A stretch of 64,000 bases of DNA, taken from an uncultured Actinomycetes bacterium. Lineage in GTDB: Bacteria > Actinomycetota > Acidimicrobiia > Acidimicrobiales > CADCSY01. The position numbers were made by a program, and so were the translations under genes. The DNA is taken from the NCBI GenBank assembly GCA_963743945.1, contig CAVURO010000002.1:19433-83432 (forward strand), given 5' to 3'. Shown in pieces: positions 55,998-64,000 of this stretch. The notes beneath the pieces were generated by a model. The model ran no database searches. It was not told the origin of the DNA and was given only the letters and a program-made list of their open reading frames with translations. Position 1 is the stretch's first letter; the number at the start of each line of letters is the position of its first letter.

Positions 55998-56073
55998 TGG
56001 TGGTCGGGACCGGCGTCGATCCGGTGACCTCACGCTTTTCAGGCGCGCGCTCTGCCAACTGAGCTACCCGACC
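55998..56073 (-). tRNA. tRNA-Phe (anticodon GAA), CCA encoded
   Basis: Reverse complement GGTCGGGTAGCTCAGTTGGCAGAGCGCGCGCCTGAAAAGCGTGAGGTCACCGGATCGACGCCGGTCCCGACCACCA folds as a cloverleaf. 7-bp acceptor stem GGTCGGG/CCCGACC. Confidence 0.95.
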
Positions 56074-56105
56074 TTGCATGCGGGGACGTCAGAGGACCTC
56101 CCCAG

Positions 56106-56180
56106 CGGTCCCGACGGGATTTGAACCCGCGACCTCCGCCTTGACAGGGCGGCGTGCACTCCAGACTGCACTACGGGACC
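56106..56180 (-). tRNA. tRNA-Asp (anticodon GTC)
   Basis: Reverse complement GGTCCCGTAGTGCAGTCTGGAGTGCACGCCGCCCTGTCAAGGCGGAGGTCGCGGGTTCAAATCCCGTCGGGACCG. T-loop GGTTCAAATCC. No encoded CCA. Confidence 0.95.
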
Positions 56181-56213
56181 AGGGTGAGCGCTTATGTCTG
56201 CGCCGCTCTTGCG

Positions 56214-56286
56214 CACCCCCAACGGGATTCGAACCCGTGCTGCCGCCGTGAAAGGGCGGTGTCCTAGGCCGCTAGACGATGGGGGC
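56214..56286 (-). tRNA. tRNA-Glu (anticodon TTC)
   Basis: Reverse complement GCCCCCATCGTCTAGCGGCCTAGGACACCGCCCTTTCACGGCGGCAGCACGGGTTCGAATCCCGTTGGGGGTG. No encoded CCA. Confidence 0.95.
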
Positions 56287-56389: not shown

Positions 56390-56863
56390 TCATGCGAGCG
56401 ACTCGATCATCGAGTCGAGCAGGTAGCCGAGATAGCCGTAGACGGCGTAGGTGTCCGCTTGCGGGTGGTTCGGATCGAGCAGGTTCGGGTCGTCGTCCTC
56501 GCTGACATCGAGGTGGGTTCCGAGGATCAGCCGGAGATCGTTGACCACGTTCATCCAGGCCGACAGAGCCTGTTCGTCGATTCGTCCCGCTTCGAGGGTG
56601 TCGCGCACCGTACGAAGCTTCTCGCGACGAAGAGCGACCAGGTCGTTGCCGACCAGCACCTGGTACGAGGCCTCGAGATCGGGGTCATCGGGGTGGGCAA
56701 CCGGGAAAAGTCGCCGCAGGACGGGGTTGTCGCTCGGCCTCTGCTCGTCGGCCAACGCGGCGTCGAGTTGTTCCACGAGGTCACCGAGGAGGCGACGCTC
56801 GGGCTCCGAAAGCTTGAGCTCGAAGTCGCCCTGGCGGGTTCGGCGCACGGGGCCCCGGCTCAT
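56390..56863 (-). CDS. DUF2017-family protein (conserved ClpS neighbour in actinobacteria)
   Basis: Start at MSRGPVRR. Acidic protein directly downstream of clpS. The family call rests on recalled synteny and composition. Confidence 0.65.
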   Translation of the reverse strand: MSRGPVRRTRQGDFELKLSEPERRLLGDLVEQLDAALADEQRPSDNPVLRRLFPVAHPDDPDLEASYQVLVGNDLVALRREKLRTVRDTLEAGRIDEQALSAWMNVVNDLRLILGTHLDVSEDDDPNLLDPNHPQADTYAVYGYLGYLLDSMIESLA

Positions 56864-56879
56864 GCGAGGTGTCGTGTCA

Positions 56880-57182
56880 TCAGTCGTGCTGCATGGTCGC
56901 CCAAAGACCATGCTCGTGGAGGCGGAACACGTCGAGCTCACACTTCTCGCGTGTGCCGTTCGCCACCACCGCCCGACCTTTTTCGTGGACGTCAAGCATC
57001 ATGGCGGTCGCCTTCTCCCTGCTGTAGCCGAACAGCTTCTGCAGCACGAAGGTCACGTACGACATCAGGTTGATCGGGTCGTTCCAGACGAGGACGATCC
57101 AGGGCGTGTCGGCGGCAACGGACTCATCCGATGTCGGCTCGTCGACCTCGACCGGAGCGAGCGACATCGACAGCGGTGTCAT
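56880..57182 (-). CDS. clpS: ATP-dependent Clp protease adaptor ClpS
   Basis: [47 protein letters not shown]. Confidence 0.93.
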
Positions 57183-58129
57183 GACTGCATGTTAGAGCCC
57201 CTGACGGCGGGGGTGAGAGGGGGAACCCTTGTCCCGGGTTTGATCGCCGGTCGCGAGAACTTCAGCGTGAGGTGCAGAGAGGCCAGCCACACGAGTGACG
57301 CTCCCAGGAGGTGGAAGCCGACCAGCAGTGCCGGAACGCCGTTGAAGTACTGCGTGTAGCCGATCCCGGCCTGGGCGACCAGAACGATGAGCAGCAACTC
57401 ACCCGCGCGGTTCGCCGACGGGGGTGCGCCCGAGCGCCTGAGGTGCCGCATCAACACCAGCGTGATCGCCACCAGCATGATGACGCTGCCCCCGTGGATC
57501 CGGGCAGCCTCGGTGATGTCCAGGTTCAGACGATCGACGTCGGCGTCGCCGGCATGGGGGCCGGCAGCGGTGACCACCGTTCCGGTGAACAACACCAGCG
57601 TGGCAGCGACCAGAACCAGCCTTCCCAGCATGGTGGTGACGGCATCGACCACGGGCACTCGAGGGCCTTCGTCCTCCTCGGCACGGTGGACCAACACCAT
57701 CGCATTGCCGATGAGCACCATGGAGAGGAGGAAATGGCCCATCACAAAGGGAGGGCTCAGCTCCACGAGCACCGTGATGCCGCCGAGCACGATCTGGCCG
57801 ATCACGCCGGCCACCAGGCCCAGTGACAGCACGGTCAGATCACGTCGCCGAGGTGAGCGTCTCAGCGAGCCGAGCACGGCCACGATGACCGCCACGGACA
57901 CCAGGCCGGTCACCAGTCGGTTGACGAACTCCACCATGGCATGGAGATCGCCTGCGCTGACCGGGGTCAGGCTGCCGGGCGAGCAGTTCGGCCAATCGGT
58001 GCAACCGAGACCGGAGCCGGTGAGGCGTACTGCTCCTCCCGAGACGACGATGAAGACCAGGGCGATGAGCGCAACTCGGGTGATGTGGCGATACGTCGTG
58101 GGGGAAACGCTGATGGGAGCCACCGCCAC
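57179..58129 (-). CDS. ctaA: Heme A synthase (COX15/CtaA)
   Basis: [19 protein letters not shown], eight TM segments with paired His residues. ATGA overlap with clpS. Confidence 0.9.
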
Positions 58130-58194
58130 ATGGTAAATGCGGTCGCCGCGGTCTTCGACTTGGGCGGTGCCCGCCGCTCCCCTAACCTCGCAGT

Positions 58195-59109
58195 GTGCTG
58201 CATCCCGCGACCCTGCCCGTGTCCTTGCGCACCCGGCTTGTTTCGGTGGTCGGCGCCTACGTGGCGCTGACGAAGCCCCGCATCATCGAGTTGCTTCTGA
58301 TCACCACGGTCCCAACCATGGTCGTCGCAGCGAGAGGCTTTCCGTCAGGGTGGCTGGTGCTTGCAACATTGTTGGGCGGCACGTTGGCCGCCGGTGGGGC
58401 CAACGCGATCAACATGTACGTCGATCGCGACATCGACGCGATCATGGAGCGGACCCGGAACCGTCCTCTTGTGACCGGAGCGGTCGCTCCTCAGCACGCG
58501 CTCGTCTTCGCGATCGGGCTCGAAGTGGCGGCGTTCGCATCCCTGTGGGCGCTGGTCAATCTCCTCAGCGCTGTTCTGGCGGTCTCGGCGACCCTGTTCT
58601 ACGTCTTCATCTACACGATGTGGTTGAAGCGGAGTTCCACCTCGAACATCGTCATCGGGGGCGCGGCGGGGGCGGTGCCGGTGTTGGTGGGTTGGGCTGC
58701 GGTGGAGAACTCCCTGGGCTGGGCACCACTGGTCCTTTTCGCCATCATCTTCTACTGGACCCCGCCCCACTTCTGGGCACTTGCCGTTCGGTACAAGGAC
58801 GACTATGCGGCGGCGGGGGTGCCGATGCTGCCCGCGGTGGTCAGCCTCCGAGCCACGGCGGTACGGATGCTCGGCTACACCCTCTTCCTCTGGGCCTTGA
58901 CCCTGGTGTTCGCCCCGGTCGCAGACATGGGATGGCTTTACGTGAGCGCAGCGATGGTGCTCGGCGGCATCTTCGTCTGGTACGCCGTGCGCCTGTTGCG
59001 CAACCCCACCGCTGGGGTCGCGATGTCGATGTTCACCTATTCGATCACCTACATCAGCTTGTTGTTCGGGGCGATGGCGCTGGACCAGGTTCTGCGGTCG
59101 GGAGCGTGA
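58195..59109 (+). CDS. ctaB: Protoheme IX farnesyltransferase (heme O synthase)
   Basis: LTKPRIIELLLITT, GGANAINMYVDRDIDAIMERTRNRPL, YWTPPHFWALA. Confidence 0.94.
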   Translation: MLHPATLPVSLRTRLVSVVGAYVALTKPRIIELLLITTVPTMVVAARGFPSGWLVLATLLGGTLAAGGANAINMYVDRDIDAIMERTRNRPLVTGAVAPQHALVFAIGLEVAAFASLWALVNLLSAVLAVSATLFYVFIYTMWLKRSSTSNIVIGGAAGAVPVLVGWAAVENSLGWAPLVLFAIIFYWTPPHFWALAVRYKDDYAAAGVPMLPAVVSLRATAVRMLGYTLFLWALTLVFAPVADMGWLYVSAAMVLGGIFVWYAVRLLRNPTAGVAMSMFTYSITYISLLFGAMALDQVLRSGA

Positions 59110-59133
59110 GGTGAGGTCGCAGGCAAGGTCGGA

Positions 59134-59155
59134 GCGGGGGGATTTCTCCCCCCGC
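59134..59155 (+). terminator. GC-rich stem-loop after ctaB (9-bp stem, 4-nt loop, no U-tract)
   Basis: GCGGGGGGA-tttc-TCCCCCCGC, 25 nt after the ctaB stop. A TAGAGT hexamer follows at 59169-59174. Confidence 0.45.
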
Positions 59156-59260
59156 CACTCATGGTGTGTAGAGTCCGGTCCGGCCGCGATCGGCCGTCAC
59201 CCAGGCCAGAGCAGGGCGTCACAGGGCGTCGTGCGACGATTCCGAGGTTCGTGCTGATTC

Positions 59261-60853
59261 ATGTCGATGACCGAGACAAGACCTGACACCGAGATCGCTG
59301 CGCCGGTGAGTGTGGACGATTCTCCCATCGATACGCCCGCCGGTCTGGCCGGTTGGCTGACCTCCACCGATCACAAGGTCATCGGTCGGCTCTGGGTGGT
59401 CACGTCCTTGGCGTTTCTGGTCGTCGGCGGTGTCCTGGGCTCGATGCTTGCCGGCGAGCGCATCGAGAGCGGTATGGACATCATCGACCTCGGTGCCTTC
59501 CAACAGGTGTACAGCCTGCACGGCGAGGTTGCGGTCTTCCTCTTCCTGGTTCCCTTCTTCATCGGGTTGGCCACCTACCTGGTCCCGCTGCAGGTTGGGG
59601 CGACCGAGATCTCGTTCCCTCGGGGCGCAAGCTTTGCCTACTGGGGATACGTCGTTTCGGGAGGACTGCTCCTGGCTTCCTACATCGCCGACGGTGGCCT
59701 TGCGGGCGGCAGCAAGACCGGCATCGACCTCTACCTGCTCAGTCTGATCTTCCTCAACGTTGCGTTGTGCGCAGCAATCGTCGCCATCCTGGCCACCGTC
59801 ATCGCCATGCGTGCTCCCGGCATGACGCTGATGCGCACGCCCTTGTTCTCCTGGTCCTTCCTCGTGGGTGGTGGGCTGACCCTGCTCGCAACCCCGGTTC
59901 TGATCGCGCATCTGGTGGAGTTGTACGTGACGCACCACTTCGGGGGGTCGCTCGAGGCCACGACCGGTATCGGTTGGTTCTGGGCGGTTCCTCAGGTCTA
60001 CGTGTCGGCCATTCCGGCCCTCGGTGTCGCGCTCGAGATCGTTCCGGTGCTTGCCGGGTCCCGTCTCGTTCCCCGAGGCGCGTCACTGGTCCTCATCGGC
60101 CTTGCGGGCGTGCTCGGCTTCGGCGCCTACGCCCAGGTCGGCCCCATCTTCGACGACGCGTTGTTCGTCGGTATGGGCCTCGCCGGCGTGCTGCCCATCC
60201 TCGGCCTGCTGGGTCTCGTCGGCGACTCGATGCGCAGGGGCAGGTTCACGGTCAAGGCGCCGATGCTGTTGGCCCTGGGGTCGCTCGTGTTGTTCCTCAT
60301 CGGGGCCGCCGCCGGTGCGGCATCGGTCATCGACGCCCTCGACCTGCGAGGCACCGTGTGGGGTGTCGGTCAGGCACATCTCATCCTGGAGGGCGCCGGC
60401 CTGTTGGCTGCATTCGCCGCCCTCTGGTTCTGGGCGCCGAAGATCTGGGGCATCACGCTCAACGACGTCGCCGGCAAGCTGGTCTTCCTCCTCGCTTTTG
60501 CGGGGGCTTCGGCGTTGGCGGTTCCCGACCTGGTGAACGGACTGGTCGAGGATCAGGCGATCGGTGCGATCGACATCCCGTCGGGCTCTTCGGTCGAAGC
60601 GATGAACGCCGTCTCCTCGGCAGGCGGCGCCTTGATGCTGCTTGCGGTTGTGCTCACCATCGCCGCGCTGGTGAGCGCCTTTGCCCGTAGGAAGTCCAAC
60701 CCCGTGGTCGATGATCCGTGGGACGGCTTCACCTTGGAATGGTCGACGGCGTCGCCGCCACCTCCGGCCAACTTCGATGAGCCGGTCGGGCTCGTCGCCT
60801 CACCCACCCCTGTTCTCGACCGCCGTTCCGATGGCTCGGAGGCTCTCCTCTGA
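59261..60853 (+). CDS. Heme-copper oxidase subunit I paralogue lacking CuB and high-spin heme ligands
   Basis: 530 aa, clearly COX1-like (TDHKVIG, YSLHGEV, FPR, DPWDGFTLEWSTASPPP). GHPEVY reads AVPQVY, WAHHMF reads AYAQVG, AHFHYV reads GQAHLI. Confidence 0.85.
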   Translation: MSMTETRPDTEIAAPVSVDDSPIDTPAGLAGWLTSTDHKVIGRLWVVTSLAFLVVGGVLGSMLAGERIESGMDIIDLGAFQQVYSLHGEVAVFLFLVPFFIGLATYLVPLQVGATEISFPRGASFAYWGYVVSGGLLLASYIADGGLAGGSKTGIDLYLLSLIFLNVALCAAIVAILATVIAMRAPGMTLMRTPLFSWSFLVGGGLTLLATPVLIAHLVELYVTHHFGGSLEATTGIGWFWAVPQVYVSAIPALGVALEIVPVLAGSRLVPRGASLVLIGLAGVLGFGAYAQVGPIFDDALFVGMGLAGVLPILGLLGLVGDSMRRGRFTVKAPMLLALGSLVLFLIGAAAGAASVIDALDLRGTVWGVGQAHLILEGAGLLAAFAALWFWAPKIWGITLNDVAGKLVFLLAFAGASALAVPDLVNGLVEDQAIGAIDIPSGSSVEAMNAVSSAGGALMLLAVVLTIAALVSAFARRKSNPVVDDPWDGFTLEWSTASPPPPANFDEPVGLVASPTPVLDRRSDGSEALL

Positions 60854-61467
60854 TGGCTGCGACCATGACCAAACCATCCGATTCCACCTCGGCGCTACCG
60901 CGTCGGGGCGGCATTGCCATGACCGGGTCGATGCTCGCCATCGCCGCGGGGGTGATGCTCTTCGGGGGACTCTTGGCGAGTTACTTCGGCCAACGCGGTG
61001 CTGCTCAGGCAGCGGGCGAGGCATGGCTGCCTGAGGGACTTGCCTTGCCGAACGTCGCCTTGGCCACCACCTACCTGGCCCTGTTCATGTCGGCGGTGAC
61101 GGCCCAATGGGCGGTAACGGCGATCAAGCAGAACGACCGTCTGAATCTCTACTGGGCATTGGGAACCACGCTCTTCCTGGCCTTCGCCTTCATCAACGGG
61201 TTGACCTTCTGTTGGCGAGAGCTCGGGCTTGTTGCGGGCTCGGGCACCTATGCAGCGCTGGTGTACGCCATCACCGTGAGCCATCTGCTCGTCGTGATCG
61301 CGGCGATAGCGGTCTTCTTGGTGATGGGATTCAGGTCCCTTGGTGGGCAGTTCTCGTCACAGAACAGCGAGTTCGTGGCATCGGCTGCAGCCTTCTGGCA
61401 TTTCGCCGTGGGTGCGGGTTTCCTCGTCTATTTCTCGCTCTGGTTCCTCGAAGGGGCACCCAAGTGA
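60853..61467 (+). CDS. Cytochrome c oxidase subunit III-like membrane protein
   Basis: 204 aa, five hydrophobic helices, C-terminal FWHFAVGAGFLVYFSLWF resembles the subunit III WHFVDVVW motif. TGATG overlap with the upstream gene. Confidence 0.65.
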   Translation: MAATMTKPSDSTSALPRRGGIAMTGSMLAIAAGVMLFGGLLASYFGQRGAAQAAGEAWLPEGLALPNVALATTYLALFMSAVTAQWAVTAIKQNDRLNLYWALGTTLFLAFAFINGLTFCWRELGLVAGSGTYAALVYAITVSHLLVVIAAIAVFLVMGFRSLGGQFSSQNSEFVASAAAFWHFAVGAGFLVYFSLWFLEGAPK

Positions 61468-62237
61468 TCACGACCGGCGCAAAGTTCTGGTTCGGCCTCA
61501 CCTTCTTCACGCTCGTTGCCGCGGTGACGTATTTCGTGGGCAGCGGTGGCGAGGAGTTCGGTTCGGTTGTTCTGTCGGCCGCGACGATTGCCTCGTTTGT
61601 GGTCGGTGCCACGTGCGCCGGCCTGCGGGACGGAAACCTTCAGACGCCCGGTGGGCGCTCGGTCACGGTCGGGGTGACACCACGGCGCTCTGCGGGGCCG
61701 GCGCCTTGGCCGGCGCTCGGTGCGGTCGGAGTAGCGGTCTCGCTGGTGGGTCTCGCCGGTGGCAATGCGCTGCTGTACGTGGGTATGGGCATCATGGCGG
61801 TGGTCCTCGTGGAGTGGATGGTGCAGGGTTGGGCAGAACGGTCCACGGCCGACGCCGATCACAACCGGGAACTCCGCAATCGCCTCATGCAGCCCGTGGA
61901 GTTCCCGGTGCTCGCGGCCGCGACGATCGCCCTTGTCGTCCTGTCGCTGTCCCGGGTGCTCCTGGCACTGTCGAAGACCGGGTCGACCGTCATCGCCATC
62001 GTGATCGCCTCGGTGATTCTCCTGGTCGCCTTCGTGGTGGCCGCTCGACCCCGAATCAGCTCAGCGTTGCTGAGTGCCCTCCTCGTGGTCTCGGCCGTGG
62101 GTCTCATCGCCGGCGGGATCACCAGCGCGGTGATCGGTGAACGTGAGATCGAGAAGCACGGCACCGAGTCCCACAGCGACGGACCTACGGGGACCCAGCC
62201 GGTTGGCGACGAGGCACCTGAGGACACACACCCATGA
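61464..62237 (+). CDS. Polytopic membrane protein with CtaF (actinobacterial subunit IV)-like N-terminal half
   Basis: The N-terminus ITTGAKFWFGLTFFTLVAAVTYFVGSGGEEFGS resembles my recollection of CtaF N-termini. About 257 aa, roughly twice CtaF length. GTGA and ATGA overlaps with both neighbours. Confidence 0.5.
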   Translation: MITTGAKFWFGLTFFTLVAAVTYFVGSGGEEFGSVVLSAATIASFVVGATCAGLRDGNLQTPGGRSVTVGVTPRRSAGPAPWPALGAVGVAVSLVGLAGGNALLYVGMGIMAVVLVEWMVQGWAERSTADADHNRELRNRLMQPVEFPVLAAATIALVVLSLSRVLLALSKTGSTVIAIVIASVILLVAFVVAARPRISSALLSALLVVSAVGLIAGGITSAVIGEREIEKHGTESHSDGPTGTQPVGDEAPEDTHP

Positions 62238-63331
62238 AGGTCAGGAGTCCAGCCATGAAGCTCGGCCGTGTTCGCCGTGCCGCCTTTTCGCCGCCGAGCC
62301 TGATGGCGGCTTTGACGTTGGGACTGTCCGCTTGCGCGAGTGACGCTCCGCAGGACACGCTCGATCCGGCCGGGCCGCTGGCCCGCAGCATCGACAACCT
62401 GTTCGTCCCGGTGTTCTGGATCGCCGCCGCCGTCTTCTTTCTCGTGCAGGGCATCCTCATCGTCGCCGTCGTCAGGTTTCGGCGTCGGCCCGGTGACGAC
62501 GAGTTGCCGCGGCAACTTCACGGCAACACCATTTTGGAGCTGGGCTGGACGGCGTTGCCCGCGCTGGTGCTCGCCGTGGTCGGGGTGCTGACCTTGCCCG
62601 TGATCTTCGATCTCAACGAGAAGCCGGCCGATGCCCTCCAGGTGAAGGTGGTAGGGCAGAAGTACTGGTGGGCCTACGAGTACCCACAGGTGTCGGAAGA
62701 GTTTCCCAACCAGGCAGGCTTCGGCCTCGATGGGGAGAAGCCCATCGTGACCGCGAACGAGTTGCACGTCCCCGCAGGCCGGCGGGTGTTGCTCACGCTC
62801 ACCTCGACCGATGTCATCCATTCCTTCTGGGCTCCCCGACTGAACGGCAAGCGAGATGTCGTGCCAGGTCGGACGCATACGTGGATGATCGAGGCGGACG
62901 AGCCGGGCGTCTACTCGGGTCAGTGCGCGGAGTTCTGCGGCGTGTCGCATGCCAACATGCGCCTCAAGGTCGTCGCCCATGACGCAGCGGGATGGAAAGA
63001 CTGGCTGGCGGGTCAGATGCCTGACGCAACGACGCCGACATCCGGCCCGGCAGCGGAGGGATACGCGCTCTTCGGTCAGCAGTGCGCCATGTGCCACAAG
63101 GTCGACGGCGTCTACAACCAGGTTCAGGCCACGTCGCCTTCGGCCCCGAATCTCACCCACCTGTTCAGTCGCGACTGTTTCGCCGGCTGCCTTTATGATC
63201 TGAACGACCGCAACGAGCTCAAGGCCTGGTTGCGTGACCCCCAGCGCAAAGCCGGTTCTCTGATGGTGATCCCCAAACTCTCCGAGGGTGACATCGACAA
63301 GCTCGTTGCCTACCTCGAGACGTTGGACTGA
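62234..63331 (+). CDS. ctaC: Cytochrome c oxidase subunit II with fused C-terminal cytochrome c domain (caa3 type)
   Basis: Lipobox LSAC, two TM helices, CuA site HSFWAP...CAEFCGVSHANM, heme c motif CAMCH at 63083-63097. Confidence 0.93.
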   Translation: MKVRSPAMKLGRVRRAAFSPPSLMAALTLGLSACASDAPQDTLDPAGPLARSIDNLFVPVFWIAAAVFFLVQGILIVAVVRFRRRPGDDELPRQLHGNTILELGWTALPALVLAVVGVLTLPVIFDLNEKPADALQVKVVGQKYWWAYEYPQVSEEFPNQAGFGLDGEKPIVTANELHVPAGRRVLLTLTSTDVIHSFWAPRLNGKRDVVPGRTHTWMIEADEPGVYSGQCAEFCGVSHANMRLKVVAHDAAGWKDWLAGQMPDATTPTSGPAAEGYALFGQQCAMCHKVDGVYNQVQATSPSAPNLTHLFSRDCFAGCLYDLNDRNELKAWLRDPQRKAGSLMVIPKLSEGDIDKLVAYLETLD

Positions 63332-63347
63332 CGGAAAGACTGCGATC

Positions 63348-64000
63348 ATGGCTCTTACTCATCTGGAACCAGCGCTCGATGTACGGGACAGCGAAGCTCC
63401 CGCCCCGTTCCTGGGTGTCTTTCGACGACCGACGACCAACACCGGCTGGCGTTCATGGTTGACGACGGTCGATCACAAGAAGATCGGGATCCTGTACGGG
63501 GGTTCCGCCCTTGTGTTCTTTGCCGTCGGCGGGCTCGAGGCTTTGCTCATTCGTGCACAGCTCGCCCAGCCGGAGGGGCAGGTCCTCACTCCCGAGCAGT
63601 ACAACCAGGTGTTCACGATGCACGCGACCACGATGGTGTTCCTGGTGATCATGCCGATGCTCGCCGCATTCGCCAACTACCTCATCCCCATCATGATCGG
63701 CGCGCGCGACGTCGCCTTTCCACGGCTCAATGCGCTCAGCTTCTGGATATTCATCGTCGGTGGACTGTTTCTCTACTCCAGCTTTCTCTTCGGTGGGGCC
63801 CCTGACGGGGGCTGGTTCGCCTACCTGCCGAACACGGGCCCGGTCTACTCTCCGGGCGCCGGCATGGATTTCTGGGGCCTGGGGTTGCAGATCACCGGCA
63901 TCGCGTCGCTGCTGGGCGCGATCAACCTGATCGTTACCTGTCTCAACATGCGTGCGCCCGGCATGACCCTCATGCGAATGCCCATGTTCGTGTGGATGTC
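63348..64000 (+). CDS. ctaD: Cytochrome c oxidase subunit I, canonical (5' partial, runs off the window)
   Basis: Not in the ORF track because it has no stop in the window. My translation from ATG 63348: MALTHLE...WLTTVDHKKIGILYGG...YNQVFTMHATTMVFLVIMP...GARDVAFPRLNALSFW...MRAPGMTLMRMPMFVWM. GGAAAG lies about 10 nt upstream. Confidence 0.92.
   Translation, partial: MALTHLEPALDVRDSEAPAPFLGVFRRPTTNTGWRSWLTTVDHKKIGILYGGSALVFFAVGGLEALLIRAQLAQPEGQVLTPEQYNQVFTMHATTMVFLVIMPMLAAFANYLIPIMIGARDVAFPRLNALSFWIFIVGGLFLYSSFLFGGAPDGGWFAYLPNTGPVYSPGAGMDFWGLGLQITGIASLLGAINLIVTCLNMRAPGMTLMRMPMFVWM

What the first reader, a model, noticed from the sequence alone, without database searches (positions are those of the whole stretch)
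59261..60853. Oxidase subunit I paralogue with the O2-reducing binuclear centre removed but low-spin heme ligands kept
I compared this ORF with textbook subunit I motifs and with the canonical ctaD at 63348.

Retained motifs:
- TDHKVIG.
- The helix II histidine (VYSLHGEVAVFLFLVP).
- GATEISFPR.
- The C-terminal DPWDGFTLEWSTASPPP.

Substituted catalytic positions:
- WFFGHPEVY reads WFWAVPQVY, so the CuB His is Val and the proton-channel Glu is Gln.
- VWAHHMF reads GAYAQVG, so both remaining CuB His residues are gone.
- AHFHYV reads GQAHLI, so the high-spin heme ligand is Gln while the second His, the low-spin heme ligand, is kept.

The ORF is full length (530 aa), uninterrupted, and has normal GC3-rich codon usage. 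It therefore looks like a maintained gene rather than decay. Such a protein could bind at most one bis-His heme and cannot reduce O2. I know of no characterised family with this pattern. Possible roles are an assembly scaffold, a regulatory or proton-conducting subunit, or an electron-relay module.
Basis: partly seen in the sequence, partly recalled or inferred. Interest (0 to 1): 0.82.

Follow-up and report, generated by a model that had tools for sequence, protein, structure and literature searches.

The report
Metal-free "ghost" copy of oxidase subunit I
This gene encodes an intact, conserved copy of the main respiratory oxidase subunit that has lost its oxygen-reducing metal centre; it sits with two similarly stripped partner genes inside the real oxidase operon across a whole bacterial class, so databases that call it an oxidase are wrong.

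Summary
ORF 59261-60853 (530 aa) matches COX1 end to end and is predicted to keep the 12-helix fold. All three CuB histidines, the heme a3 histidine, the helix-VI Glu, the K-channel Lys and the propionate-binding Arg pair are missing. Only the two low-spin heme histidines remain (H87, H373).

It is not a decaying duplicate. Intact orthologues occupy the same position in about 80 species-level Acidimicrobiia genomes: ctaB-X-X3-M257-ctaC-ctaD-ctaE-ctaF-ctaG. The closest unsaturated comparison gives dN/dS of about 0.15.

X has two conserved partners. X3 is a diverged subunit III. M257 is a 7-helix protein whose N-terminal part resembles actinobacterial subunit IV (CtaF).

About 18% of close relatives and about 90% of distant orthologues lack them. 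A basal lineage still has both heme ligand sets. This looks like stepwise cofactor loss.

The conserved function is therefore cofactor-independent. Most likely X, X3 and M257 form a non-catalytic structural module of the caa3 oxidase complex. An assembly-scaffold role is the main rival.

I found no description of this in the literature. Databases name it an oxidase subunit I.

The parts
59261..60853 (+). X: non-catalytic paralogue of heme-copper oxidase subunit I (530 aa, 12 predicted TM helices). It keeps only the two low-spin heme His (H87, H373).
   Evidence: Pfam COX1 at 188.8 bits. Ligand columns. AF2 model has pLDDT 90.3 and pTM 0.92. Foldseek TM-score (query-normalised) is 0.79-0.87 to solved subunit I chains. 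Orthologues and synteny.
60853..61467 (+). X3: diverged subunit III paralogue (204 aa). Its start overlaps the X stop codon (TGATG).
   Evidence: Pfam COX3 at 35.5 bits, above the 23.8 cut-off. NF050119 aa3_CtaE_Actin at 48 bits, far below its 190 cut-off. 22% identity to the operon's real CtaE, E=7e-7. Always follows X. Junction sequence.
61464..62237 (+). M257: 7-TM membrane protein with no Pfam family. Its N-terminal ~115 aa resemble actinobacterial CtaF (subunit IV). It has a strongly conserved cytoplasmic loop, EWMVQGWAER...N..LR.R.M.P.E.P. In this clade the C-terminal cupredoxin-like ectodomain seen in most of the class is absent. Its start overlaps the X3 stop (GTGA).
   Evidence: Profile hits to mycobacterial and corynebacterial CtaF chains, best 9wcx_m at E=4.6e-5. 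10 of 44 members hit PF12270. Long forms and cupredoxin domains. Junction. Seven hydrophobic peaks and seven helices.
62255..63331 (+). ctaC: canonical subunit II with a fused cytochrome c domain (caa3 type). An alternative ATG at 62234 would overlap the M257 stop.
   Evidence: COX2_TM, COX2 and Cytochrom_C domains, with TIGR02866 at 189 bits above its 147.7 cut-off. Start choice.
63348..64000 (+). ctaD: canonical catalytic subunit I, cut off by the window end. It is 671 aa in the near-identical locus L001, followed there by ctaE, COX4_pro and Caa3_CtaG.
   Evidence: All six His ligands are present in the L001 copy.
58195..59109 (+). ctaB: heme O synthase, immediately upstream of X.
   Evidence: UbiA family at 216.9 bits. 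Conserved position across loci.
57179..58129 (-). ctaA: heme A synthase, divergently transcribed.
   Evidence: COX15-CtaA at 86 bits. Conserved position across loci.
59134..59155 (+). GC-rich hairpin (9-bp stem, 4-nt loop) inside the 151-nt ctaB-X spacer. It may be a terminator or an RNA-stabilising element, which would make X the first gene of the structural operon.
   Evidence: Sequence. Folding 59110-59200 gives MFE -48.1 kcal/mol and z = -3.35 against shuffles. The function is inferred only.

Best explanation
X is a pseudo-enzyme: a paralogue of oxidase subunit I that keeps the 12-helix fold and the cytoplasmic-face loop motifs but has lost the O2-reducing heme a3-CuB centre and both proton channels.

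X is co-inherited and tightly co-encoded with a degenerate subunit III (X3) and a CtaF-like 7-TM protein (M257), directly upstream of the genuine caa3 oxidase genes. The most likely mechanism is that X, X3 and M257 assemble into a redox-dead 'ghost oxidase' membrane module. This module would be made together with CtaC/D/E/F and sit beside them as supernumerary structural subunits. It could shape or stabilise the oxidase complex or supercomplex. In lineages where M257 still carries a cupredoxin ectodomain, it could hold an electron-carrier-like domain near the oxidase.

The conserved role does not need a cofactor. In the window's clade the retained bis-His site is best read as an ancestral remnant that may or may not still hold a heme.

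Shown here:
- loss of the ligands;
- retention of the fold (predicted);
- class-wide synteny;
- purifying selection;
- stepwise ligand loss.

Inferred: physical association with the oxidase, and a structural role.
For: Ligand and channel loss are shown.

The fold is retained. The AF2 model has pLDDT 90.3, and Foldseek TM-scores (query-normalised) are 0.83-0.87 to CtaD of Corynebacterium and Mycobacterium and to bovine COX1.

The gene order ctaB-X-X3-M257-ctaC-ctaD-ctaE-ctaF-ctaG appears in essentially every Acidimicrobiia locus long enough to show it, about 80 species-level genomes. The M257 signature pattern confirmed relatives in 231 stretches of the one-genome-per-species collection.

The X ORF is intact in about 66 of 69 fully covered loci. 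The three exceptions lie in assemblies where ctaB, ctaC, ctaD, ctaE, ctaF or ctaG are also split, so assembly indels are the likely cause.

dN/dS is 0.15 against the 90%-identical relative L089. It is 0.056 against L090, but dS is saturated there.

Stop and start codons overlap or lie close together from X to ctaD.

All three module proteins are paralogues of oxidase subunits I, III and IV.

The residues conserved class-wide in X are Gly/Pro/aromatic fold residues and loop motifs shared with real CtaD: TDHK, P.Q.G....AF.R, RAPGM..R.P.F.W, W.PK and DPW..TLEW.T.SPP..NF. By the standard subunit I topology these lie on the cytoplasmic side. No chain of conserved buried charged residues is present.

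M257 carries a cupredoxin ectodomain in most of the class. At least one member (P0145) has an intact type-1 copper ligand set, which links the module to periplasmic electron transfer.

Pairwise distances of X track those of ctaC and ctaD (r = 0.90-0.93) more closely than those of ctaB (r = 0.82). This is weak evidence.
Against: There is no direct evidence of expression or of physical association with CtaC/D/E.

No multimer prediction could be run.

X, X3 and M257 evolve about 2.8 times faster than CtaD and CtaE (mean distance about 1.2 against about 0.4). That fits loosely constrained accessory subunits, but it also fits an assembly factor.

The position next to ctaA and ctaB (heme A synthesis) would also suit a biogenesis role.

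Retention of both low-spin His in about 80% of the near clade suggests that something there is still selected, and a purely structural model does not explain it.

No precedent for two subunit I-type proteins in one oxidase turned up in my literature searches or among the solved structures matched.
Confidence: 0.5

Rival explanations
1. X (with X3 and M257) is a biogenesis scaffold or chaperone, by analogy with NifEN and NifDK. In this model a dead copy of the core transiently holds CtaC or nascent CtaD, or buffers heme A from the adjacent CtaA/CtaB, during oxidase assembly. It would not be part of the mature enzyme.
For: X lies immediately downstream of ctaB and next to ctaA in all loci. The near clade keeps the heme a-type bis-His pair. 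A review states that how heme A is inserted into subunit I is not known (PMC9145763). Faster evolution than the catalytic subunits is typical of accessory factors.
Against: Most of the class lacks both His, so heme handling cannot be the conserved role. The propionate- and formyl-binding residues are gone even here. Tight translational coupling with the structural genes suggests production in similar amounts. A dedicated Caa3_CtaG assembly gene already ends the operon.
Confidence: 0.22
2. In the window's clade, X binds one bis-His heme (a or b) and acts as an electron relay, electron store or redox sensor attached to the oxidase.
For: H87 and H373 are conserved in 99/116 and 105/116 near relatives, while the mean column identity is 55%. 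Their losses tend to coincide, as expected for a two-ligand site. Basal orthologue L059x still has both heme ligand sets plus R38, so heme binding was ancestral.
Against: 21/116 near relatives and 50/55 distant orthologues lack the site, yet keep the gene, its length and its synteny. R38, Y54, W126 and R438/R439 are replaced. The periplasmic loops that cap the hemes and dock CuA are shortened (gaps in the alignments). No electron entry domain is paired with X, and M257 has lost its cupredoxin domain in this clade.
Confidence: 0.15
3. X is a proton- or ion-conducting, or regulatory, membrane subunit that reuses the old channel architecture.
For: The D-channel entrance residue stays acidic (E or D) in 90/116 near relatives. 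Several His-to-Gln and Glu-to-Gln replacements keep the core polar.
Against: The channel Asn residues, E242 and K319 are replaced. The acidic entrance residue is not conserved class-wide. No conserved intramembrane charged residues remain across the family.
Confidence: 0.06
4. X is a lineage-specific decaying duplicate, that is, a pseudogene in progress.
For: It evolves much faster than CtaD and has lost its ligands.
Against: ORFs are intact across a bacterial class at 29-90% identity. dN/dS is 0.06-0.15 in close pairs. GC3 is normal. Fixed synteny with two co-conserved partners. The same protein was recovered in 8 contigs from independent samples.
Confidence: 0.02

Closest known systems
A-family heme-copper oxidase subunit I (CtaD/CoxA, Pfam PF00115), e.g. 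M. tuberculosis CtaD (8hcr_F) and the operon's own CtaD
   Same: Full-length homology: 31% identity to the operon's own CtaD, and E=4e-55 to 8hcr_F. The same predicted 12-TM fold (query-normalised TM-score 0.83-0.87). Shared loop motifs on what is the cytoplasmic face in the standard topology. The helix II and helix X low-spin His are present.
   Different: No CuB His, no heme a3 His, no helix-VI Glu, no K-channel Lys, no D-channel Asn and no Arg pair for the heme propionates. Periplasmic loops are shortened. It scores far below every curated subunit I equivalog cut-off.
Divergent HCO families with altered active sites (cNOR/qNOR; eNOR, bNOR, sNOR, gNOR, nNOR; Murali et al. 2024, PMC11214002)
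   Same: They belong to the same superfamily and depart from the oxidase active-site pattern.
   Different: According to that paper, those families keep a high-spin heme and a metal site. The site is three His with or without Glu, and gNOR changes one His to Asp. They remain catalytic. X has no metal-B ligands and no high-spin heme ligand.
Actinobacterial aa3 subunits CtaE (subunit III) and CtaF (subunit IV, PF12270) of the bcc-aa3 supercomplex
   Same: X3 and the N-terminal part of M257 are detectable homologues of these subunits. This gives a I/III/IV-like trio.
   Different: Both are very diverged. M257 adds three more TM helices, a conserved cytoplasmic loop and, in most of the class, a type-1-cupredoxin-like ectodomain. 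No second subunit II is present, and the M257 ectodomain shows no similarity to CtaC.
Catalytically dead paralogues used as structural or scaffold subunits (general knowledge, not tested here): the MPP-like core proteins of mitochondrial complex III, and NifEN relative to NifDK
   Same: A duplicated catalytic subunit is kept for a non-catalytic role next to the active enzyme.
   Different: These are analogies only. They involve different folds and complexes, and association of X with the oxidase has not been demonstrated.

Membership tests
Heme-copper oxidase superfamily, subunit I fold (PF00115 COX1) | Sequence match above the Pfam gathering score over the whole domain | tested here: met
   188.8 bits against a 34.8 cut-off, profile positions 2-435 of 436.
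Heme-copper oxidase superfamily, subunit I fold (PF00115 COX1) | 12-TM helix fold that superposes on solved subunit I | tested here: met
   AF2 pLDDT 90.3 and pTM 0.92. Foldseek query-normalised TM-score 0.79-0.87 to 7qhm_D, 6adq_F, 1occ_A and others. This is a predicted structure, not an experimental one.
Catalytic O2-reducing subunit I (CtaD/CoxA equivalog, TIGR02891 / NF050116) | Six invariant His: two for the low-spin heme, one for the high-spin heme, three for CuB | tested here: not met
   Only 2 of 6 are present (H87, H373). The other columns are V243, Q292, a gap and Q371.
Catalytic O2-reducing subunit I (CtaD/CoxA equivalog, TIGR02891 / NF050116) | Curated equivalog score cut-off | tested here: not met
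   TIGR02891 scores 249.4 against 670.75. NF050116 scores 239.8 against 880.
Catalytic O2-reducing subunit I (CtaD/CoxA equivalog, TIGR02891 / NF050116) | His-Tyr cross-link partner pair and proton channels (D91, N80, N98, E242, K319) | tested here: not met
   The Tyr column is kept (Y247), but its His partner is Val. E242 -> Q, K319 -> L, N80 -> T, N98 -> A. Only the D91 column stays acidic, as E116.
Nitric oxide reductases of the HCO superfamily | High-spin heme His plus a three-His (with or without Glu/Asp) FeB site | tested here: not met
   There is no His in the helix VI, VII or high-spin helix X columns. Family definitions are taken from PMC11214002.
Quinol oxidase subunit I (CyoB/QoxB) | Equivalog score and the catalytic ligands | tested here: not met
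   TIGR02882 scores 183 against 1015. TIGR02843 scores 181 against 1020.
   Both are present in this ORF. At least one is absent in 21/116 near relatives, and 50/55 distant syntenic orthologues lack the site.
   This needs heme analysis of the protein. The supporting residues R38, W126 and R438/R439 are replaced.
Pseudogene / decaying duplicate | Disrupted reading frames, relaxed selection or patchy distribution | tested here: not met
   Intact in about 66 of 69 fully covered loci. dN/dS is 0.06-0.15. Synteny is conserved class-wide.
Stoichiometric subunit of the caa3 oxidase complex (my best explanation) | Co-purification or a structural interface with CtaC/D/E | not testable with these tools
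   Only indirect support is available: operon membership, overlapping stop and start codons, and correlated divergence.

The most novel reading that the evidence does not exclude
Acidimicrobiia respire with an oxidase complex that carries a complete but redox-dead second copy of its own membrane core (I'-III'-IV'). This would be a bacterial case of supernumerary subunits arising by duplication and stepwise cofactor loss of the catalytic core. The intermediate stages are still alive in different lineages: two hemes without CuB in L059x, one bis-His site in the window's clade, and no ligands in Ilumatobacteraceae. In the window's clade the ghost subunit would still hold one heme.
Probability: 0.3. 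Interest if true: 0.8.

Novelty: new variant of a known kind. Interest (0 to 1): 0.6.

Why it matters
1. Annotation. Public sources name these proteins 'cbb3-type cytochrome c oxidase subunit I', 'cytochrome o ubiquinol oxidase subunit' or 'cytochrome c oxidase subunit I'. Gene-count-based inferences of oxidase content and oxygen affinity for Acidimicrobiia are therefore inflated. This class is abundant in freshwater (acIV, Ilumatobacteraceae), soil and activated sludge (Microthrixaceae).

2. A blind spot in surveys. The HCO classifier paper explicitly discarded sequences lacking the six His ligands (PMC3084760). Families like this one were filtered out by design.

3. Evolution. The family preserves a graded series of cofactor loss in a respiratory enzyme core. 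This makes it a tractable system for asking how a 12-helix heme protein is re-stabilised without its hemes, and how accessory subunits originate.

4. Bioenergetics. If the module is part of the oxidase, Acidimicrobiia have an oxidase architecture for which I found no precedent in my literature searches or among the solved structures matched.

Tried and rejected
Origin of X. I compared BLASTP scores of ten X proteins against groups of canonical CtaDs. X is not closest to the operon's own CtaD and is roughly equidistant from many A-family CtaDs. The comparison set was biased towards X-like sequences. The NJ tree is crude and X sits on a long branch. The donor lineage and the date of the duplication therefore stay unresolved.

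First genome scan. The scan with the X alignment was flooded by canonical CtaDs, because the conserved patterns are shared with them. Scanning with M257 worked instead.

M257 as a fused subunit II. hhalign of its C-terminal half against the CtaC family found nothing (probability 0.7%). The ectodomain weakly resembles type-1 blue copper proteins instead (6kol E=0.008). I rejected the subunit II idea.

Whole-module duplication that included the CtaD C-terminal extension. hhalign of M257 against that extension gave only 42% probability, which is inconclusive.

dN/dS beyond the closest pairs. dS is saturated, so those values are unusable.

M257 structure. The model was too weak to search with (pLDDT 73, pTM 0.42).

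Model coordinates are not exposed, so I could not measure the heme cavity or the His-His distance.

Seven completed literature searches found no description of a ligand-less subunit I family. An eighth call was rejected for a malformed term.

No sigma-70-type promoter match was found in 57000-64000. The terminator-like matches were at the chance level.
Full report
**1. What is in the window**

The ORF at 59261-60853 (+) is real: 530 aa, an ATG start and no interruption. Its GC3 is 0.82, the same as its neighbours.

It matches Pfam COX1 over the whole domain at 188.8 bits. It scores far below every curated subunit I model: TIGR02891 gives 249 against a cut-off of 670, and NF050116 gives 240 against 880.

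The best solved relatives are mycobacterial CtaD chains, with 8hcr_F at E=4e-55. Identity to the operon's own CtaD is 31%.

An AlphaFold2 model built on 116 homologues is confident (pLDDT 90.3, pTM 0.92). It superposes on solved subunit I chains from Corynebacterium, Mycobacterium, E. coli bo3 and bovine heart, with query-normalised TM-scores of 0.83-0.87 for these. The fold is therefore kept.

**2. Ligand columns**

Three independent alignments agree. Its 14 landmark residues fall at their textbook positions.

| Bovine residue | Role | In X |
|---|---|---|
| H61 | low-spin heme ligand | H87 |
| H378 | low-spin heme ligand | H373 |
| H376 | heme a3 ligand | Q371 |
| H240 | CuB ligand | V243 |
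| H290/H291 | CuB ligands | Q292 / gap |
| E242 | helix-VI Glu | Q245 |
| Y244 | cross-linked Tyr | Y247 |
| K319 | K channel | L |
| R438/R439 | heme propionates | I / G |
| R38 | heme a formyl | A |
| W126 | heme propionates | S |
| N80/N98/N163 | D channel | T / A / A |

There are only six His in the protein, and none lies between residues 227 and 372. The binuclear centre cannot be rescued by shifting the register. In detail: this protein cannot reduce O2.

**3. Genomic setting**

The near-identical contig L001 comes from an Acidimicrobiales MAG and encodes a 99%-identical X. It completes the picture cut off by the window end.
- ClpS and ctaA are on the minus strand.
- On the plus strand the order is ctaB, X, X3, M257, ctaC, ctaD, ctaE, a COX4_pro subunit IV and Caa3_CtaG.
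- X3 is a 204-aa COX3-like protein. M257 is a 257-aa membrane protein.
- ctaC is COX2 with a cytochrome c domain. ctaD is 671 aa.

The X stop overlaps the X3 start (TGATG). The X3 stop overlaps the M257 start (GTGA). M257 is followed by ctaC after 0-17 nt, and ctaD follows ctaC after 16 nt.

A 151-nt spacer with a stable GC hairpin separates ctaB from X.

**4. The partners**

X3 passes the Pfam COX3 threshold but shares only 22% identity with the operon's real CtaE.

M257 has no Pfam family. A profile of 44 members hits four distinct CtaF (subunit IV) sequences of the mycobacterial and corynebacterial supercomplexes through its first ~115 residues. The best hit is E=4.6e-5, and 10 of 44 members hit PF12270 individually.

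M257 then adds a highly conserved loop (EWMVQGWAER...N..LR.R.M.P.E.P) and three more helices. The positive-inside rule, together with the external C-terminal domain of the long forms, places this loop in the cytoplasm.

In most of the class M257 is 365-395 aa long and ends in a ~120-aa ectodomain that weakly resembles type-1 blue copper proteins (6kol E=0.008).
- One member (P0145) has the full His/Cys/His/Met ligand set.
- Others have lost the Cys or the whole copper loop.
- The window's clade has lost the domain entirely.
- The ectodomain is not related to CtaC.

The three genes therefore form a I'/III'/IV' set. Every redox feature in it is degenerate or lost.

**5. Distribution, integrity and selection**

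More than 120 homologues at 48-83% identity were found, all from Acidimicrobiales or Actinomycetota metagenomes. A separate search seeded from an Ilumatobacteraceae orthologue found more than a thousand hits.

The M257 signature pattern confirmed relatives in 231 stretches of the one-genome-per-species collection. Most of the 80 listed come from Acidimicrobiia, and the rest carry only phylum-level or evidently wrong labels.

In essentially every locus long enough, the order ctaB-X-X3-M257-ctaC-ctaD-ctaE-ctaF-ctaG is kept.

X is intact in about 66 of 69 fully covered loci. The three exceptions are in assemblies where ctaB, ctaC, ctaD, ctaE, ctaF or ctaG are also split, so they are most likely assembly indels.

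Against the 90%-identical relative L089, dN/dS is 0.15 over 348 codons. This is similar to X3 (0.09), M257 (0.25) and ctaC (0.22). More distant pairs have saturated dS.

X, X3 and M257 evolve about 2.8 times faster than CtaD and CtaE. Within clades they remain well conserved: mean column identity is 68% in an alignment dominated by the Ilumatobacteraceae set. This is a maintained gene, not decay.

**6. The low-spin ligands are not a family feature**

| Set | H61 column | H378 column | Source |
|---|---|---|---|
| Near clade (116 sequences) | His in 99/116 | His in 105/116 | |
| Syntenic orthologues below 44% identity (55) | His in 5/55, mostly Y or F | His in 5/55, mostly V, I or L | |

In the near clade, 21 members lack at least one of the two and 8 lack both.

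Conversely, some divergent orthologues keep more. L059x has H61, H376, H378 and R38 but no CuB His. L064x and L014x keep H61 and H378.

In a crude NJ tree all X proteins form one long-branched clade. The ligand-rich forms are basal, and the bis-His pair is lost several times independently.

The pattern reads as stepwise loss. CuB is absent everywhere, then the heme a3 ligand goes, then the low-spin pair. The window's protein is an intermediate stage.

**7. What is conserved**

Positions at least 85% conserved across the whole class are almost all Gly/Pro/aromatic fold residues and loop motifs shared with real CtaD: TDHK, P.Q.G....AF.R, RAPGM..R.P.F.W, W.PK and DPW..TLEW.T.SPP..NF. By the standard subunit I topology these lie on the cytoplasmic side.

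The periplasmic loops that cap the hemes, bind Mg and dock the CuA domain are shortened or variable.

There is no class-wide chain of buried charged or polar residues. This argues against an ion-conducting role.

**8. Interpretation**

The conserved function must be independent of cofactors and tied to the caa3 oxidase. I consider it most likely (about 0.5) that X, X3 and M257 form a redox-dead membrane module. This module would be made with the oxidase and sit beside it as supernumerary structural subunits.

The cupredoxin-bearing M257 forms hint that the module lies close to the periplasmic electron-entry side.

The rivals are:
- An assembly scaffold (about 0.2). The position next to ctaA and ctaB and the retained bis-His site in this clade favour it. 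It is weakened because most orthologues have no ligands.
- A heme-based relay or sensor function (about 0.15). It could apply only to this clade.
- Ion conduction (about 0.06).
- Pseudogenisation (about 0.02).

That X is a maintained, non-catalytic paralogue belonging to the oxidase gene cluster is close to certain (about 0.9). Physical association with the oxidase and a structural role are inferred.

**9. Comparison with what is known, and novelty**

X is a member of the HCO superfamily fold. It fails every defining feature of a catalytic oxidase or NO reductase subunit I.

The divergent HCO families described recently still keep a high-spin heme and a metal-B site (PMC11214002). The HCO classifier paper removed sequences lacking the six His (PMC3084760).

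Seven completed full-text searches found no description of a ligand-less subunit I family or of this Acidimicrobiia module. The library is incomplete, so prior description cannot be excluded.

I rate it a new variant of a known kind. It is of moderate to high interest to bioenergetics and to metagenome annotation. Its function is still unproven.

Noticed in passing
P0145 (M257 homologue, 359 aa), P0154, P0164, P0215, P0137; long forms in L118, L147, L165, L167 and others: M257 orthologues in most Acidimicrobiia carry a C-terminal cupredoxin-like ectodomain. P0145 has an intact type-1 copper motif (H...C-x2-H-x4-M). The others have lost the Cys or the whole loop, and the window's clade has lost the domain altogether. 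This is a second graded series of cofactor loss in the same module.
   Followed up: partly
L059:3629-5281 (also L064 and L014 X-position genes): A gene in the X position keeps both heme axial-ligand sets (H61, H376, H378) and R38, but has Arg and Ser in place of the CuB His. It may be a two-heme, copper-less intermediate. L064x even keeps the helix-VI Glu.
   Followed up: partly
L001:14088-16103 (full-length version of the ctaD that starts at window 63348): The canonical CtaD is 671 aa, with a ~130-aa C-terminal extension containing extra helices. The extension gives a weak PF12270 (CtaF) hit and a weak hhalign match to M257 (probability 42%). The active enzyme may carry a fused subunit-IV-like tail in addition to a separate COX4_pro gene.
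   Followed up: partly
window 59110-59260 (hairpin at 59134-59155): The ctaB-X spacer folds into an unusually stable structure (MFE -48.1 kcal/mol, z = -3.35) around a 9-bp GC hairpin with no T-tract. A TAGAGT hexamer follows at about 59170. This could be a terminator or processing site plus a promoter for the X-to-ctaG operon.
   Followed up: partly
window 55998-56286 (-): A cluster of three tRNA genes (Phe-GAA, Asp-GTC, Glu-TTC) lies between the HAD-hydrolase gene and the DUF2017/ClpS/ctaA block.
   Followed up: no
window 56390-57182 (-) and loci L001, L005, L007, L008 and most M257 loci: ClpS and a DUF2017 gene sit directly downstream of ctaA on the minus strand. ClpS is found there in most loci that extend far enough; DUF2017 was seen in the loci with gene calls. 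The reason for this conserved adjacency to the heme A and oxidase genes is unknown.
   Followed up: no
Database names; record titles of L038, L126, L130, L152, L163, L165, L166: X orthologues are annotated as 'cbb3-type cytochrome c oxidase subunit I' or 'cytochrome o ubiquinol oxidase subunit'. Several MAG records carrying this Acidimicrobiia operon are titled Bifidobacterium, Acidimicrobium ferrooxidans DSM 10331 or Ferrithrix thermotolerans DSM 19514. These titles look like taxonomy-label errors.
   Followed up: no
L020, L026, L034: Some Acidimicrobiia contigs carry a second, canonical ctaC-ctaD pair (48-51% identical to the operon's CtaD) without X, X3 or M257. The ghost module is therefore tied to one particular oxidase operon, not to every A-type oxidase in the class.
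   Followed up: partly
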